Source: a virus
Length of the DNA stretch: 64,000 bases
Virus genome (UHGV): UHGV-0180032
Direction: 5' to 3' (one strand)
Position numbers: made by a program. Of the stretch, positions 57,001 to 64,000 are shown one piece after another. How positions within the stretch are numbered: the first letter of the stretch is position 1; each line of letters begins with the position of its first letter.

Positions 57001-60000
57001 TTAACTTAGGGTGATTGTACCTTATTTTGTATAAACCGTCTTAGAACTCGTTCTAGCGCGTTTTACGGACAAAATAAACCTACCCTCCTGCTAAGCAGGA
57101 GGGTATTTATTATTCTACCGGGTGCAACATAGTGCCGGTATCTGGAATGCTACCTTCGTGACATCTGAAGAACGTTACACCTTTACCTTCACCCGTTTTG
57201 TAGTTGACAGTAGAATACGCAAACGTTGGGGTTTTCGACAGTAACCCGTTTACACGGTAATAGCGCTCACCGGTAACAACGTTTAAGTTACCGTCCACTT
57301 TACCTAACAGGTCTTTATATAGTTGCGGAGATTCAATTTTACCTTCGTCCCATGTAGCGACCCAATTCGCCCCTGTATCCATGACTAACACCGAAAGGGG
57401 CATCAGTTTTAGGCTAGACGGTACCGGTTTAAAATCAACGAATTCTTGAGAAGCACCTGTACAGGTGTAAATGACCATATCGTGTTGGTCAACAGGTACG
57501 GTGGAAAACTGACCTTCCGCGTTCGGCTGAATAGCACAACTTGCCAACGTCATTACAAAAGCAACGACCACGAGAATGCGTTTTAGCATAAACTCACCCT
57601 TATTAAAATTAAGAAAAAATAATTTTTTCAGGTTAGCGCTTACTGCCAACCGTCATATCTATATTTTAGGAAATGTCTAAAATAACATTCTTATGCAATC
57701 CACCCCTACCACTAACGAGGTAAAAAAAGATGGCTAAAGCCTTCAAACAACAGCTCAATTCGTCTGGCTTCTCAAGACCTGATCGGTGCCAAAGCTTACG
57801 AACAAGCCGGTAGCCTCGATCTGGAAAACTCCGTCATCGTAACCAAACTGAACGAAGAAATGGTTACTAAAGGTTATGTCGATGACGCATTCGCCGAAAG
57901 CGAACTGTCCATTGAGAAATCCGAAGGCGACAGCGGTGCTAAAGTCTACACTGTCAAAGTAAGCGAAGGCCACATCAAATTCCTGGCTGGTACTATTGCC
58001 GTCTTCACTTATTCCAACCCAGCTCCTGAGAAGGTAGCACTGAGCGGTCTGGAAGGTGAACTTGATGGCTTCACTGCACCGGGTGTCGGTGGCTAATTAA
58101 ATCGGGGGGGGGTGACCTCCCCCGATATTTCTCTAACACGTATTATTAAGGACCTAGATAATGGCCGCTACTAACCAGATGATGTTGGTCGCGCTTTATA
58201 ATGCTGCTAACGCTGAGCTACCGCATCAGATTACAGATAAAGAAGTGTCCTTTGGTCTCCCTACTGCGCTGGAAGGCGAAAGTAAGAATACCAAAGTTAC
58301 CATGACTGCACTACCGGGTTCTGAGAATTTCAAAGGCGAAATCGAACTGCATTACGATCGTCTGGAACCAGGTGTTGTAGGACGGATTGAACTAACTGAC
58401 GATCTGTCTCGCTGGGTTCAAGAAAATGAACTCCGCGCTTGGTTACAATATTACATCAACAAAGTAAAACCTGACGACGCTATCGCACCAGGCGACGTTG
58501 TGTACAACACCGAAGACCAGAAAGACGAACATGAAAACGTCACTCTGCGTACCGTGACGTGCACCGTTACTGAAAAGAACCTCCGTTATAAACCGGGCGT
58601 AATGGCAACCTTCGTAATTACACCGAAGGTTGTCGATAATCGTATTGACCTGGCCACCACCAACGGTGAGTTGGACGGTTTTACTGCTTAATCGCTAAGT
58701 CAACTACTATAACAAAAAATAATAAGTTTACCTACCTCCTTTACGGAGGTAGGTATTTTTTTATTCTAATCCCATTTCCAGTGCAAGAGCACGGATCGTG
58801 TCGTAGTCACGCTGTTCAGCGTACTGACGAATTTCACGTTTCTGGGCAGACATCGCGTTGTGTAACTGTTGGTCACGCTTCACAATAGCCCCCATCAACG
58901 CTTTACATTGCTCCAGCGTAAACGGTTCTATACGTGTATTCGACGTGTCCAGCCAATAATCCGGTGCAGTTTCAGACTGGATATATTGGCCCAGCATCTG
59001 ACGAGAGGTTTCGTCAGCTTGGAAATGACGACCGTCAACTTCGATGTAGCCGTGACGCTGGTCTTCGTAACGGTGTTCAATTTCCAACATGATTTTCTGG
59101 ATATCTAAATAGATATAGCGAGACGTCGAACGCATATTCGAACGAATCTCATCCAGGTCAATCTCCAGAACGTCAGTAATGAATTCTTTTGCTTTATTCA
59201 GTGTAAACTTCGACTCGATAGGAGACATTTCGTAAGTTTGCATCTGGGCTAAAGCTTCTTCATCACTCATCCCTTCAATCAACTTGTAGTGCAGTAAAGC
59301 ACAGAACCCCGTACGTCCACGGACTTCGTTACCTACACGTTCCATGTAGTTACCGTGGCGGTCAATTGGGAGATCGTGAGCGAAATAACGCGCGCGAATC
59401 TCTTCCTTCGTTAAGCTTTTGTTAGAAGCAGACATTCTTCTTCTCCAACCATACCTAATTCTTGCAGCAAGCCAAAATCAATCAACTGGAAGGTTTCAGA
59501 GAGATCGTTTGACCACACCACGTTTGCAATGTCGCGTTCTTCATCCGTTAACTGCGGTAACACACTTTCGTTGAACGTCTGATGCTCTACGTAATACGCA
59601 TCGTAGATAGACGTGGAACGCAAACAACGGATGGGTAGACGCGGGAAAGACACCGCTAACGCAGCAATAGACGCGCTGCTCGGATTCTCCGCTGAATAAC
59701 GAAGCAGTTCGATTTTGTGGCGTGGGTAGTCCAGTACACGTTGTTCGAAACCCGGATTACGTTTTTCGATTTCCACAACGGACTCATGGCCTGTTTCTGT
59801 GCAGTAAACAGGAATCATCACGTTTAACCCGTACTTAATCAGCAGGGGTTTAATCTCATCTGTAAAGTCTTCACCAGGGATAATGGCGTGGACGTTATAG
59901 AGTTTGTGTTTACGCAGAAAACGCTCAACCAGGTGGAGTTTACGCTTCGTAAAATTGTGGATCAGAATTGATTTCATTATTTGCCTCAGTAGGTTGTGCA

Positions 60001-63000: not shown

Positions 63001-64000
63001 GCAAGATGGTGACGTACCGAATCAGGGGAAGAGATGTGAAGTGGATGATTGAACGTTGTCGTATATGCAAGATGTAGATCGTTCTTCATTGATTACTCCA
63101 ATTAATTCACGGTCAAACGGACGTTCAGGGTATAGAACCCACCCCGCCATTGTCTGCCGGTAACTTGAAACTCAGCAGTAAACCCATTCGATTTACTCGA
63201 TTGTTGTGTAATAGCCGTGCTACCACCGGAGGGTTTATTTACCTTCCCCCCGCTCCTTTACTACAGCTACCACTGCACGCCCAGCTACAACTACCGTTAC
63301 AGTTATAGTGAGTTAACGGTAATCCCGCCAGGTTATTCGTTGAGGACACCGTACCTTGGTTAGCGATGTAGTTATTCGCGTCTGTGGTTTTAATGTAACC
63401 TTCAACCTGACCGACTCTGTCTCGAATATTTTTGAGGGAAATCACTTCTCACCTCCTATCGTCCTGTACACGACGAGCAGCCACCCGTACAGCTACTGGA
63501 GCACGATGCTGTACAGCCGCCCGTACAAGTGCCCGAACACGCATTAGCGCACCCACCCGAACAACTCCCCGAACATCCTGAACAACTACTGGAACACCCT
63601 GACGTGCAGTTTGCAGAGCATGAAGAACCACAACCACCAGACGCGTTCCCTGTACAACCACCAGAGCAACTCGAGCAGGTAAAGGAACACGTGCCCGCAC
63701 AATCATAATGCGCACGATTCCGACCACCGAACAGGTCCGCGTTATTCGTGGCCTTATTGCGGATGTAGTTCTGTACACCTGTGGTGTTTTTCAGCGCGAT
63801 ACTATCGACGTTATTAAGACGTCTTACTAATTCAGCTAATCCGACTGCCATTTCTTCCCCCTATCGTCCAGAGCATCCGCCGGAGCAAGCACCCGAACAG
63901 TTATGCGAACAACGCCCAGTACAACTTCCGGTACAGGTACTTGTACAACTGCTAGAACAGGCCCCCGAGCAACCGGAGCATCCTGAACAGTTGCCCCCAC

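What the first reader, a model, noticed from the sequence alone, without database searches (positions are those of the whole stretch)
58761..64000. Candidate phage-encoded RiPP-like system: tandem Cys-rich peptides plus two radical SAM enzymes
On the minus strand, one operon-like block contains at least three tandem small ORFs with polar leader-like N-termini and extremely Cys/Gly/Ser-rich cores, then (after a 149-nt gap) a 295-aa unknown protein, two radical SAM enzymes (CxxxCxxC; one with a SPASM-like Cx2Cx5Cx2C cluster), and two further unknown proteins, ending at a bidirectional terminator. Precursor peptides next to SPASM/twitch radical SAM maturases are the hallmark of thioether-crosslinked RiPPs (sactipeptides, ranthipeptides). 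The genes overlap by 11-62 nt, consistent with translational coupling. Finding this inside a virulent-phage structural/lysis region is unusual; the product could be a toxin, a host-manipulating peptide, or a crosslinked virion component.
Basis: partly seen in the sequence, partly recalled or inferred. Interest (0 to 1): 0.92.

Follow-up and report, generated by a model that had tools for sequence, protein, structure and literature searches.

The report
Radical-SAM-matured cysteine-repeat tail-fibre module
A giant Salmonella-type phage carries three small proteins in which about every fourth residue is cysteine, next to two radical-SAM enzymes that probably cross-link them; comparison with other phages indicates these are tail-fibre parts rather than a secreted peptide, which would be an undescribed way of building a virus particle.

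Summary
The window comes from an SPN3US-like jumbo phage. On the minus strand it encodes three Cys-rich proteins: pepA (cut by the window end), pepB (131 aa, 20 Cys) and pepC (68 aa). They are followed by a 295-aa protein, a 305-aa radical SAM enzyme with a 3-Cys auxiliary site, a 444-aa radical SAM/SPASM enzyme, two unknown proteins and a terminator hairpin.

The SPASM enzyme's best family match is the 'CXXX-repeat target' peptide maturase (TIGR04115), then PapB and CteB, all below curated cut-offs. The second enzyme's predicted fold matches peptide-modifying enzymes (ChlB, CteB, anSME) better than MoaA. The peptide genes are under purifying selection and conserved in five phage genera, but are mis-annotated or missing in most reference genomes.

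The peptide module (phrog_6085) forms the C-terminal end of bona fide tail-fibre proteins in P2-like, T7-like and other jumbo phages. There it sits in the tail-fibre gene slot beside homologues of the same two enzymes (sometimes fused) and the accessory protein. A CXXX ORF lies next to the maturase in 75 of 80 viral loci.

Best reading: enzymatic, probably thioether, cross-linking of a tail-fibre component. The chemistry and virion location are inferred, not shown.

The parts
63861..64000 (-). pepA, C-terminal 46 codons plus stop. The full gene is 130 aa with 21 Cys and would occupy 63861-64253, beyond the window end.
   Evidence: Frame translation ...GGNCSGCSGCSGACSSSCTSTCTGSCTGRCSHNCSGACSGGCSGR*. 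Full ORF on the identical source contig L018, 3022-3414. Orthologues in six other phages.
63456..63851 (-). pepB, 131 aa: a 50-aa N-terminal region, then 20 Cys at spacing 4 (occasionally 3). Repeat unit C-[ST]-G-x.
   Evidence: phrog_6085 E 1.6e-42; TIGR04114 17.6 bits against a cut-off of 20; SD GGGGGAAGAA before the ATG; dN/dS 0.10-0.22 where measurable for window pairs; spacings.
63239..63445 (-). pepC, 68 aa, GTG start. Same N-terminal region and junction motif (HYNCNGSCSWAC) but only 4 Cys.
   Evidence: phrog_6085 E 1.9e-25; SD TAGGAGGTGAGAA before the GTG. Orthologues in all seven phages; those of CR5 and Kwan keep only CxGxCSW.
63090..63238 (-). 149-nt spacer between pepC and the accessory gene.
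   Evidence: Present only in the window and its 85% relative L019; SPN3US and pEa_SNUABM_29 have 15-25 nt here. No significant fold, z -0.47.
62202..63089 (-). Accessory protein, 295 aa (SPN3US gp165 orthologue). Conserved third component of the maturation system, with no known fold relative.
61264..62181 (-). rSAM2, 305 aa: a radical SAM enzyme with a 3-Cys C-terminal auxiliary site (twitch-like).
59940..61274 (-). rSAM1, 444 aa: a radical SAM/SPASM enzyme without an N-terminal RRE, probably the cross-linking maturase.
   Evidence: Best NCBIfam hits TIGR04115 E 2e-36 (126 bits, cut-off 350) and PapB 6.5e-32. Best PDB sequence hit CteB 5wgg, 1e-12. Invariant C21, C25, C28 plus seven SPASM Cys.
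59411..60001 (-). 196-aa protein of unknown function (SPN3US gp162 orthologue), restricted to SPN3US-like phages.
   Evidence: phrog_7988 E 9e-78, no other hit. Found only in the 15 jumbo loci L018-L032.
58761..59435 (-). 224-aa protein with a C-terminal DUF4376 domain (SPN3US gp161 orthologue). Candidate fibre-assembly factor.
   Evidence: PF14301 41.9 bits, cut-off 25. Weak PHROG hits to tail and tail-fibre families. Not in the SPN3US virion protein list.
58729..58755 (.). Terminator-like hairpin between the convergent blocks.
   Evidence: 11-bp perfect stem, 5-nt loop, T7 tail on the + strand, weak tail on the - strand.

Best explanation
This is a maturation system for a phage tail-fibre component, built from RiPP-type enzymes.

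Proposed mechanism:
1. Late in infection, the tail-fibre operon (SPN3US gp170 to gp161 equivalents) expresses three small proteins, pepA, pepB and pepC.
2. Each has a roughly 50-residue N-terminal region (MAISLK-IR-RL ... N-A-x-x-F/L-x-G-x5-Y-D/N). This region corresponds to the segment that joins a fibre shaft to a cysteine-repeat tip in other phages.
3. A junction motif, C-x-G-x-C-S-W/F-x-C, follows, and then C-[ST]-G-x repeats (21, 20 and 4 Cys).
4. The SPASM enzyme rSAM1 (TIGR04115/PapB/CteB-like), the twitch-like rSAM2 and the 295-aa accessory protein act together on these proteins in the cytoplasm.
5. The most likely reaction is hydrogen abstraction followed by attack of the Cys thiolates, giving a ladder of thioether cross-links. 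These could lie within a chain or between chains.
6. The product would be a rigid rod or knot that resists reduction and proteases. It would be mounted on the baseplate fibres, with the 196-aa and DUF4376 proteins as non-virion assembly helpers.

Shown: gene reality and conservation; enzyme family and cofactor motifs; homology of the module to the C-termini of tail fibres; synteny in the tail-fibre slot; fusion of the two enzymes.
Inferred: that the enzymes modify these proteins; the thioether chemistry; presence in the virion; the roles of the accessory proteins.
For: - Enzyme class: rSAM1 hits TIGR04115, PapB, geopeptide, HxsB and SCIFF maturases and CteB is its best PDB sequence hit. It has a full 7-Cys SPASM motif. 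rSAM2's fold is closest to ChlB, CteB, anSME and TigE.
- Enzyme-substrate link: a CXXX-repeat ORF lies next to an rSAM1 relative in 75 of 80 IMG/VR loci. It also does so in a bacterial locus whose enzyme is a bona fide TIGR04115 member at 624 bits.
- The two enzymes work together: they are fused into one 668-aa (L005) or 686-aa (L035) protein in the same order. rSAM2 and the accessory protein are homologous across jumbo, P2-like and T7-like phages.
- Tail-fibre identity:
  - phrog_6085 forms the C-terminal end of L034_384 (PF12571 tail-collar fibre, 139 bits), L035_451 (phrog_2631 tail fibre, 3e-32), the collagen-like L040_401, and L033_568.
  - In T7-like contigs the CXXX protein follows the gp17 N-terminal adaptor and precedes the terminase genes.
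  - In P2-like contigs the fibre-CXXX gene and the enzymes lie between the baseplate genes and the sheath gene.
  - The junction motif is shared by all of these.
- In SPN3US the flanking gene products gp160 and gp167-170 are virion proteins and gp168-170 are baseplate/fibre candidates, whereas gp161-165 are not in the virion.
- No RRE, protease or exporter is present.
Against: - No experiment shows modification, cross-link type or virion incorporation.
- rSAM1, pepB and the PapB match all score below the curated family cut-offs.
- The window peptides are free-standing and short. The homology to fibre C-termini shows common origin, not the same location.
- The peptides were absent from the SPN3US mass-spectrometry database because they are unannotated or in the wrong frame, so their absence from the virion list says nothing either way.
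- A fibre tip made only of Cys, Ser and Gly has no precedent, and how it would bind a receptor is unclear.
- The role of a second radical SAM enzyme is unexplained. Type II phage systems manage with rSAM1 alone.
Confidence: 0.6

Rival explanations
1. A classical diffusible RiPP. The N-terminal 50 residues are a leader that is cut off, and the cross-linked Cys-rich core is released at lysis as a toxin, signal or host-manipulating peptide.
For: - Architecture of a conserved N-terminal region plus a hypervariable-looking core beside SPASM enzymes.
- Three tandem paralogous precursors, as in many RiPP clusters.
- Bacterial relatives carry Tat signals and are exported (P0022, P0025).
Against: - No RRE, leader peptidase or transporter in the cluster.
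- Cores of about 80 residues with 20 Cys.
- The N-terminal region is homologous to an internal segment of tail-fibre proteins, not to a removable leader.
- The position in the tail-fibre slot is conserved in three phage morphotypes.
- Low dN/dS in the core.
Confidence: 0.12
2. Same substrates and probably the same fibre context, but the chemistry is not thioether cross-linking. Candidates are epimerisation, Cys-to-formylglycine or dehydroalanine conversion, C-C cross-links, or the Cys array acting mainly as a metal or iron-sulfur binding wire, analogous to the His-x-His iron sites of the T4 gp37 tip.
For: - The +1 position is Ser or Thr in 80% of repeats.
- Two different radical SAM enzymes suggest two reactions.
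- Tat signals on bacterial relatives fit export of a cofactor-loaded protein.
- No member of TIGR04115 has been characterised, to my knowledge.
Against: The nearest characterised sequence relatives of rSAM1 (PapB, CteB/SCIFF maturase) all make Cys-derived thioethers. Cys is the one invariant residue of the repeat.
Confidence: 0.2
3. The radical SAM enzymes act on a non-protein substrate (nucleotide, cofactor or DNA modification) and lie next to the Cys-rich ORFs only by coincidence.
For: rSAM2 has weak sequence hits to the tungsten-cofactor maturase, MoaA, viperin and QueE. Some SPFM genomes annotate it as 'moaA'.
Against: - All those hits cover only the generic radical SAM core and lie far below the cut-offs.
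- The fold search ranks peptide maturases first.
- CXXX adjacency in 75 of 80 loci, and fusion of rSAM2 to the SPASM maturase.
- No partner genes of those pathways are nearby.
Confidence: 0.03
4. The Cys-rich ORFs are not translated, being open frames that arise by chance in low-complexity DNA.
For: All six frames are open across the region, and reference annotations disagree on frame and strand.
Against: - Strong SD sites.
- Conserved N-terminal regions.
- Saturated dS with low dN in this frame.
- HMM matches at 1e-42.
- The same module is fused in frame to tail fibres.
Confidence: 0.02

Closest known systems
CXXX-repeat peptide / radical SAM maturase system of bacteria (NCBIfam TIGR04114/TIGR04117 targets, TIGR04115 rSAM-SPASM maturase, TIGR04119 second maturase). 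Defined bioinformatically and, to my knowledge, uncharacterised.
   Same: - Substrate with Cys at every fourth residue among small residues.
- SPASM maturase without an N-terminal RRE; it is the best family hit for rSAM1.
- Genes adjacent.
- A second maturation protein is present (L014).
   Different: - rSAM1 scores 126 bits against a cut-off of 350.
- The partner is a true radical SAM enzyme (rSAM2) plus a 295-aa protein of new fold, instead of TIGR04119.
- Substrates have no Tat signal and carry a tail-fibre-derived N-terminal region.
- The system is encoded in phage tail-fibre operons.
PapB / freyrasin (ranthipeptide) and CteB / SCIFF thioether maturases
   Same: - PapB is the second-best NCBIfam family hit and CteB the best PDB sequence hit.
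- SPASM domain with two auxiliary clusters.
- Cys-x3 periodicity in the substrate (CxxxD in freyrasin, CxxxC stretches in SCIFF; from my knowledge of those systems).
   Different: - No Asp acceptor.
- 20 Cys rather than 6.
- Substrates of 130 aa, or fibre proteins of up to 570 aa, rather than about 45-aa peptides.
- No RRE domain (CteB has one).
- A second radical SAM enzyme is required.
His-Xaa-Ser system (HxsA-D): paired radical SAM enzymes acting on a tandem tripeptide-repeat peptide
   Same: Two different radical SAM enzymes (weak hits to HxsB for rSAM1 and HxsC for rSAM2), an uncharacterised accessory protein and a short-period repeat substrate.
   Different: Scores are far below the cut-offs. 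The repeat is Cys-based with period 4. The context is a phage structural operon.
Dedicated non-virion tail-fibre maturation factors (T4 gp57A/gp38, P2 gpG/Tfa chaperones) and metal-stapled fibre tips (T4 gp37 His-x-His iron sites); from general knowledge
   Same: Non-structural genes placed directly after the fibre gene and needed to produce a mature fibre. In P2-like contigs the enzymes occupy the place of the fibre-assembly chaperone gene. Short-period repeats sit at the fibre tip.
   Different: The known factors are folding chaperones, not redox enzymes. No covalent enzymatic cross-linking of a tail fibre is known.

Membership tests
TIGR04115 (radical SAM peptide maturase, CXXX-repeat target family) | HMM score at or above the curated cut-off (350 bits) | tested here: not met
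   126.2 bits, E 2e-36. It is the best-scoring family but below the cut-off. The control L014 enzyme scores 624 bits, and phage L008 scores 296.
TIGR04115 (radical SAM peptide maturase, CXXX-repeat target family) | CX3CX2C radical SAM motif plus a C-terminal 7-Cys SPASM domain, with no N-terminal RRE | tested here: met
   C21, C25, C28 and C278, C296, C340, C343, C349, C352, C377 are invariant in A3. The motif starts at residue 21.
TIGR04115 (radical SAM peptide maturase, CXXX-repeat target family) | Encoded next to a Cys-Xaa-Xaa-Xaa repeat protein | tested here: met
   pepA, pepB and pepC lie 2-3 kb upstream in the same operon. Adjacency holds in 75 of 80 viral loci.
TIGR04115 (radical SAM peptide maturase, CXXX-repeat target family) | Partner protein TIGR04119 (CXXX repeat peptide maturase) | tested here: not met
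   No window protein hits TIGR04119 at E<=0.1. The bacterial control does, at 239 bits.
TIGR04114 / PF27846 (CXXX repeat radical SAM target) | Tandem Cys-x3 repeats reaching the HMM cut-off (20 bits) | tested here: inconclusive
   pepB scores 17.6 bits, E 0.0038, just below the cut-off. The pattern is plain: 15 of 19 Cys-Cys spacings are 4. Homologues P0004, P0019, P0020 and P0022 carry PF27846.
PapB-type ranthipeptide system | NF047865 score at or above 340 bits, and Cys-x3-Asp donor/acceptor motifs in the substrate | tested here: not met
   111 bits. The cores contain no Asp and only 1-2 charged residues.
SCIFF / sactipeptide maturase (CteB type) | N-terminal RRE domain and a roughly 45-aa six-Cys precursor | tested here: not met
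   The radical SAM motif is at residue 21, against 106 in CteB. The substrates are 68-131 aa with 4-21 Cys.
RiPP in the strict sense | Leader removed by a protease, and export of the core | tested here: not met
   No peptidase, transporter or PqqD-like domain appears in any of the cluster's seven complete ORFs (Pfam, NCBIfam, PHROGs). Cleavage itself cannot be tested here.
RiPP in the strict sense | Post-translational modification of the peptide by the neighbouring enzymes | not testable with these tools
   Needs co-expression and mass spectrometry.
Phage tail-fibre C-terminal module (phrog_6085) | HMM match, and occurrence as the C-terminal part of recognised tail-fibre proteins | tested here: met
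   pepB 1.6e-42 and pepC 1.9e-25. phrog_6085 lies at the C-terminus of L035_451, L040_401 and L033_568. L034_384 is PF12571 at 139 bits followed by a CXXX tail.
Phage tail-fibre C-terminal module (phrog_6085) | Physical presence in the virion | not tested
   The SPN3US virion proteome lists gp160 and gp167-170 but could not detect the peptides, because their true ORFs were not in the database.
Non-peptide radical SAM enzymes (MoaA, QueE, NrdG, viperin) | Family-level HMM score or closest fold | tested here: not met

The most novel reading that the evidence does not exclude
Radical SAM enzymes covalently cross-link a structural protein of the virion. Cysteine-repeat (CXXX) rods or knots at the ends of tail fibres would be stapled by thioether bonds in the infected cell. 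This would be a new principle of virion construction, and it would be present in jumbo, P2-like and T7-like phages. The CXXX/maturase pairing occurs in 75 of the 80 best of at least 475 IMG/VR contigs that encode a maturase relative. The 'RiPP' machinery would then be a protein-maturation system, with the bacterial CXXX-repeat systems as its free-living relatives.
Probability: 0.45. Interest if true: 0.92.

Novelty: new variant of a known kind. Interest (0 to 1): 0.85.

Why it matters
- **New virion chemistry.** If the reading holds, this would be the first case I know of in which radical SAM chemistry builds part of a virus particle. It would also be the first enzymatically cross-linked tail fibre. 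Until now such enzymes in phages have been read as metabolic or DNA-modification genes.
- **A function for an orphan family.** It would give a concrete role and a tractable model to the uncharacterised CXXX-repeat/TIGR04115 family.
- **A testable system.** SPN3US has an amber-mutant genetic system and published virion proteomics (PMC5105663, PMC5694885). The hypothesis can be tested directly by re-searching existing mass-spectrometry data with the corrected ORFs.
- **Possible uses.** Fibres resistant to reduction and proteases could matter for phage stability in the gut and in therapy preparations. A processive multi-Cys cross-linker would interest peptide engineers.
- **An annotation gap.** The substrate genes are missing or in the wrong frame or strand in most reference genomes checked, including the RefSeq SPN3US record.

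Tried and rejected
- **Literature.** Ten full-text searches found no paper linking these genes, or radical SAM enzymes in general, to tail fibres or to phage Cys-repeat proteins. The terms included SPN3US + radical SAM, CXXX repeat, TIGR04115, ranthipeptide + bacteriophage, and radical SAM + tail fibre + SPASM. The Haft & Basu 2011 and Weintraub 2019 papers are not held.
- **RRE.** None was found by Pfam or NCBIfam in any protein of the cluster.
- **Defence-system membership.** PADLOC gives only weak generic radical SAM core hits to pVip, so this was rejected.
- **The 149-nt spacer.** It has no significant structure and is not conserved outside the closest relative. It was rejected as a regulatory element of general importance.
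- **DNA-level origin of the repeats.** One weak 21-bp array only, so recent repeat expansion was rejected.
- **tRNA and Rfam scans of the window.** Nothing found.
- **rSAM2 and the Trp of the CSW motif.** I considered that rSAM2 might be tied to this Trp. I rejected it because L034 and L035 have rSAM2 and the accessory protein but no Trp at the junction.
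Full report
**What is in the window**

The minus strand between 58761 and the window end carries eight co-directional genes. Read in the direction of transcription they are:
- pepA. Only its last 46 codons lie in the window, at 63861-64000.
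- pepB, 63456-63851, 131 aa.
- pepC, 63239-63445, 68 aa, GTG start.
- A 149-nt spacer.
- A 295-aa protein, 62202-63089.
- A 305-aa radical SAM protein (rSAM2), 61264-62181.
- A 444-aa radical SAM/SPASM protein (rSAM1), 59940-61274.
- A 196-aa protein, 59411-60001.
- A 224-aa protein, 58761-59435.

The block ends at a perfect 11-bp hairpin at 58729-58755.

**Where the window comes from**

The region is about 74% identical in DNA to Salmonella phage SPN3US and other Seoulvirus genomes. rSAM1 is 83% identical in protein. An IMG/VR contig, IMGVR_UViG_3300045988_095954 (151.6 kb, L018), is 100% identical across rSAM1, and every window ORF checked recurs on it at the predicted offset. It extends past the window end. 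It shows the following:
- pepA is 130 aa with 21 Cys.
- There are exactly three peptides.
- The genes upstream are the orthologues of SPN3US gp167 (a 401-aa coiled-coil virion protein) and gp168 (a giant baseplate/fibre protein).

The cluster corresponds to SPN3US gp161-gp166.

**The peptide genes are real**

- pepB and pepC have strong Shine-Dalgarno sites.
- All three paralogues are present in the same order in Seoulvirus, Erskinevirus, Machinavirus, Wellingtonvirus and Derbicusvirus.
- In pairwise codon comparisons, synonymous sites are saturated while dN is 0.02-0.9. Where it can be measured, dN/dS is 0.04-0.6, mostly <=0.45. This holds in both the N-terminal region and the Cys-rich core.
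- The DNA is not a tandem repeat.
- The cores are built of C-[ST]-G-x units. Position +1 is Ser or Thr in 80% of units and +2 is Gly in 51%. There are almost no charged or aromatic residues.
- Annotation in public genomes is unreliable. The SPN3US records annotate only one ORF here (gp100 / SPN3US_0166), and it is an overlapping wrong frame of pepB. CR5, Kwan and Huxley carry ORFs in a wrong frame or on the opposite strand. Only Stratton has all three right.

**The enzymes**

rSAM1:
- Its best NCBIfam matches are TIGR04115 'radical SAM peptide maturase, CXXX-repeat target family' (E 2e-36), PapB (6.5e-32), then the geopeptide, HxsB and other peptide maturases, including SCIFF (3.7e-15). All are below the curated cut-offs.
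- Its best solved-structure relative by sequence is the thioether-forming CteB.
- An alignment with phage and bacterial relatives shows an invariant CX3CX2C motif and seven SPASM cysteines. That implies two auxiliary clusters.
- It has no N-terminal RRE.

rSAM2:
- By sequence it is generic.
- It has three further invariant Cys (C245, C248, C274).

It is not met.

The other three proteins:
- The 295-aa protein folds confidently (pLDDT 88) but has no structural relative in the PDB or BFVD beyond its own orthologue.
- The 224-aa protein has a DUF4376 domain and weak similarity to tail and tail-fibre PHROGs.
- The 196-aa protein is an orphan.

**The key result: the 'peptides' are a tail-fibre module**

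A search with pepB found 200-226-aa metagenomic proteins. Their C-terminal halves align with the whole of pepB, and their N-termini resemble tail fibres. Their genomic contexts are T7-like podoviruses, with this gene order:
1. Tube, nozzle and internal core proteins.
2. The gp17 N-terminal adaptor (PF03906).
3. A collagen-like protein.
4. The CXXX protein.
5. A 238-aa protein.
6. A 668-aa double radical SAM protein.
7. Terminase.

This is the tail-fibre slot.

The 668-aa protein is an rSAM2-like N-terminal half fused to an rSAM1-like C-terminal half. The C-terminal half is 35% identical to window rSAM1 (E 3e-58).

A scan of IMG/VR with an rSAM1 alignment gave at least 475 contigs with a relative. 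I examined the best 80. A CXXX-repeat ORF lies next to the enzyme in 75 of them. Three of the five exceptions (L069, L071, L083) lack upstream flank in the locus held; the other two, L038 and L039, are discussed below.

In several loci the CXXX run is simply the C-terminal end of an unmistakable tail fibre:
- L034_384: PF12571 tail-collar fibre N-terminal domain (139 bits), phrog_327 1e-54, and the ending '...ASKLKTRRKI...FDGSEDIYITMGCNGCSGSCSGSC...'.
- L035_451: phrog_2631 tail fibre at 3e-32, with phrog_6085 at residues 356-444.
- L040_401: collagen-like repeats followed by phrog_6085.
- L033_568.

In the P2-like contigs L034 and L040 the order is baseplate genes, fibre-CXXX, enzymes and accessory protein, sheath, tube. 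The enzymes therefore sit where fibre-assembly chaperones usually lie.

Most of the Type I substrates compared, window peptides included, share one junction: N-A-x-x-L-x-G-x5-Y-[YD]-x, then C-x-G-x-C-S-W-[ST]-C. L034 and L035 lack it and L036/L037 have a shortened form.

Profile-profile comparison confirms two homologies between the jumbo-phage proteins and their counterparts in these small phages:
- The 295-aa protein: 98.5%, E 3e-15.
- rSAM2: 99.6%, E 2e-24.

**Two system types**

- Type I has rSAM1, rSAM2 and the accessory protein. It covers 23 of the 80 loci (jumbo, P2-like and unclassified ~31-35-kb contigs), plus the T7-like L005 and L007 found separately. The window belongs here.
- Type II has rSAM1 alone and is closer to bacterial TIGR04115. 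Its substrates reach 480 aa with about 90 repeats. Some have a further globular C-terminal domain, which suggests the repeat region acts as a stalk.
- The accessory family is small: 44 cluster representatives among 1.84 billion.
- A bacterial comparator (L014) has a Tat-signal CXXX peptide, a bona fide TIGR04115 enzyme (624 bits) and the TIGR04119 partner.

**Evidence from SPN3US itself**

- Published virion proteomics list gp160 and gp167-170 but none of gp161-166 (PMC5694885 supplement).
- gp168-170 are described as baseplate/tail-fibre candidates that are absent from a tailless mutant.
- The enzymes and accessory proteins therefore behave as non-virion factors inside a fibre operon.
- The peptides could not have been detected, because their ORFs were not in the search database.

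**Interpretation**

The best-supported explanation (confidence about 0.6) has three parts:
- pepA, pepB and pepC are free-standing versions of a cysteine-repeat tail-fibre tip or stalk module.
- They are modified in the cytoplasm by rSAM1, rSAM2 and the accessory protein.
- By analogy with PapB and CteB, the modification is most probably multiple thioether cross-links, and the products are mounted on the baseplate fibres.

Three things are inferred rather than shown: the enzyme-substrate relation (from adjacency, fusion and family), the chemistry (from the nearest characterised relatives), and the virion location (from homology and synteny).

Rivals:
- A diffusible RiPP (0.12).
- The same system with different chemistry or a metal-binding role (0.2).
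- Non-peptide substrates (0.03).
- Untranslated ORFs (0.02).

**Comparison with known systems**

The system works like the CXXX-repeat/TIGR04115, PapB and SCIFF systems. It fails strict membership of each one:
- Scores are below the cut-offs.
- There is no TIGR04119 partner, no Asp acceptor and no RRE.
- The substrates are much larger.

Its paired radical SAM architecture recalls the HxsBC system.

Ten full-text searches found no description of radical SAM maturation of tail fibres or of these phage genes. I rate it a new variant of a known kind, with a substantial chance (about 0.45) that it is a new principle of virion construction.

Noticed in passing
L001 9627-9962 (SPN3US NC_027402 gp100 / JN641803 SPN3US_0166); L011 3224-3553 and 3608-3985; L012 3250-3573 and 3694-3987; L010 3377-3589: Reference annotations of the peptide region are wrong in most genomes. 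SPN3US annotates an overlapping wrong frame of pepB and omits pepA and pepC. Kwan, Huxley and CR5 annotate ORFs in a wrong frame or on the opposite strand. Only Stratton (gp183-185) has all three in the right frame.
   Followed up: yes
L020 2563-3474 and L031 2564-3475: Two relatives (84% rSAM1 identity) carry an extra 303-aa rSAM2 paralogue inserted between pepA and pepB, giving three radical SAM genes in the cluster.
   Followed up: partly
L005 11330-13336 (668 aa); L035 5137-7197 (686 aa): rSAM2 and rSAM1 are fused into one polypeptide, in the same order as the separate genes, in a T7-like phage and in a 284-kb jumbo phage.
   Followed up: yes
L010 3960-4169 and L011 3963-4172 (pepC of CR5 and Kwan): In Derbicusvirus and Wellingtonvirus, pepC keeps the N-terminal region and the C-x-G-x-C-S-W junction but has no further cysteines. 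pepC may not be a repeat substrate at all; it could be a cap, primer or regulator.
   Followed up: no
window 59940-60090 (C-terminal ~50 residues of rSAM1): The jumbo-phage rSAM1 proteins have an extra C-terminal tail after the SPASM domain, with a conserved C-x-C-x2-C motif and a terminal FYEA/FYSA. The tail is absent from T7-like, P2-like and bacterial relatives (alignment A3).
   Followed up: no
window 57860-58096 (+) and 58161-58691 (+), hairpin 58101-58126: The 78-aa ORF is a truncated copy of the C-terminal part of the following 176-aa protein. Both match phrog_4862 and both end in GELDGFTA. The 176-aa protein is the SPN3US gp160 virion-protein orthologue. A G-rich terminator-like hairpin separates the two.
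   Followed up: partly
window 57110-57649 (-): A lone minus-strand gene among plus-strand lysis and tail-chaperone genes encodes a protein with a lipoprotein-type signal (MLKRILVVVAFVMTLASC). It matches phrog_9559, of unknown function. It could be a spanin or an exclusion lipoprotein.
   Followed up: no
window 63090-63238: The 149-nt spacer between pepC and the accessory gene occurs only in this phage and its closest metagenomic relative (L019). SPN3US and pEa_SNUABM_29 have 15-25 nt here. No significant secondary structure.
   Followed up: yes
L043 3807-5249; L061 7158-7877; L091 7141-7848, 11324-11998, 12747-13058; L070 3877-5580; L017: Type II phage systems are very diverse. One CXXX protein is 480 aa with about 90 Cys repeats. 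Some variants have the Cys-rich region at the N-terminus and the conserved domain at the C-terminus. Some loci carry several paralogues, and one variant has an added C-terminal globular domain. One locus (L017) has a reverse transcriptase (diversity-generating retroelement-like) a few genes downstream.
   Followed up: partly
L039 4883-8074 (and L038): A 279-kb jumbo contig has the accessory protein, rSAM1 and rSAM2 but no CXXX-repeat ORF. Upstream is a 97-aa ORF ending ...GCESCAMGCHGPQ and a 909-aa SNF2-like helicase. This may be a Type I system with a different substrate.
   Followed up: no
window 2724-4781 (-) within 2556-4841 (+): A 685-aa antisense ORF with a TTG start lies almost entirely inside a 761-aa plus-strand ORF. 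It is probably a compositional artefact, but I did not examine it.
   Followed up: no
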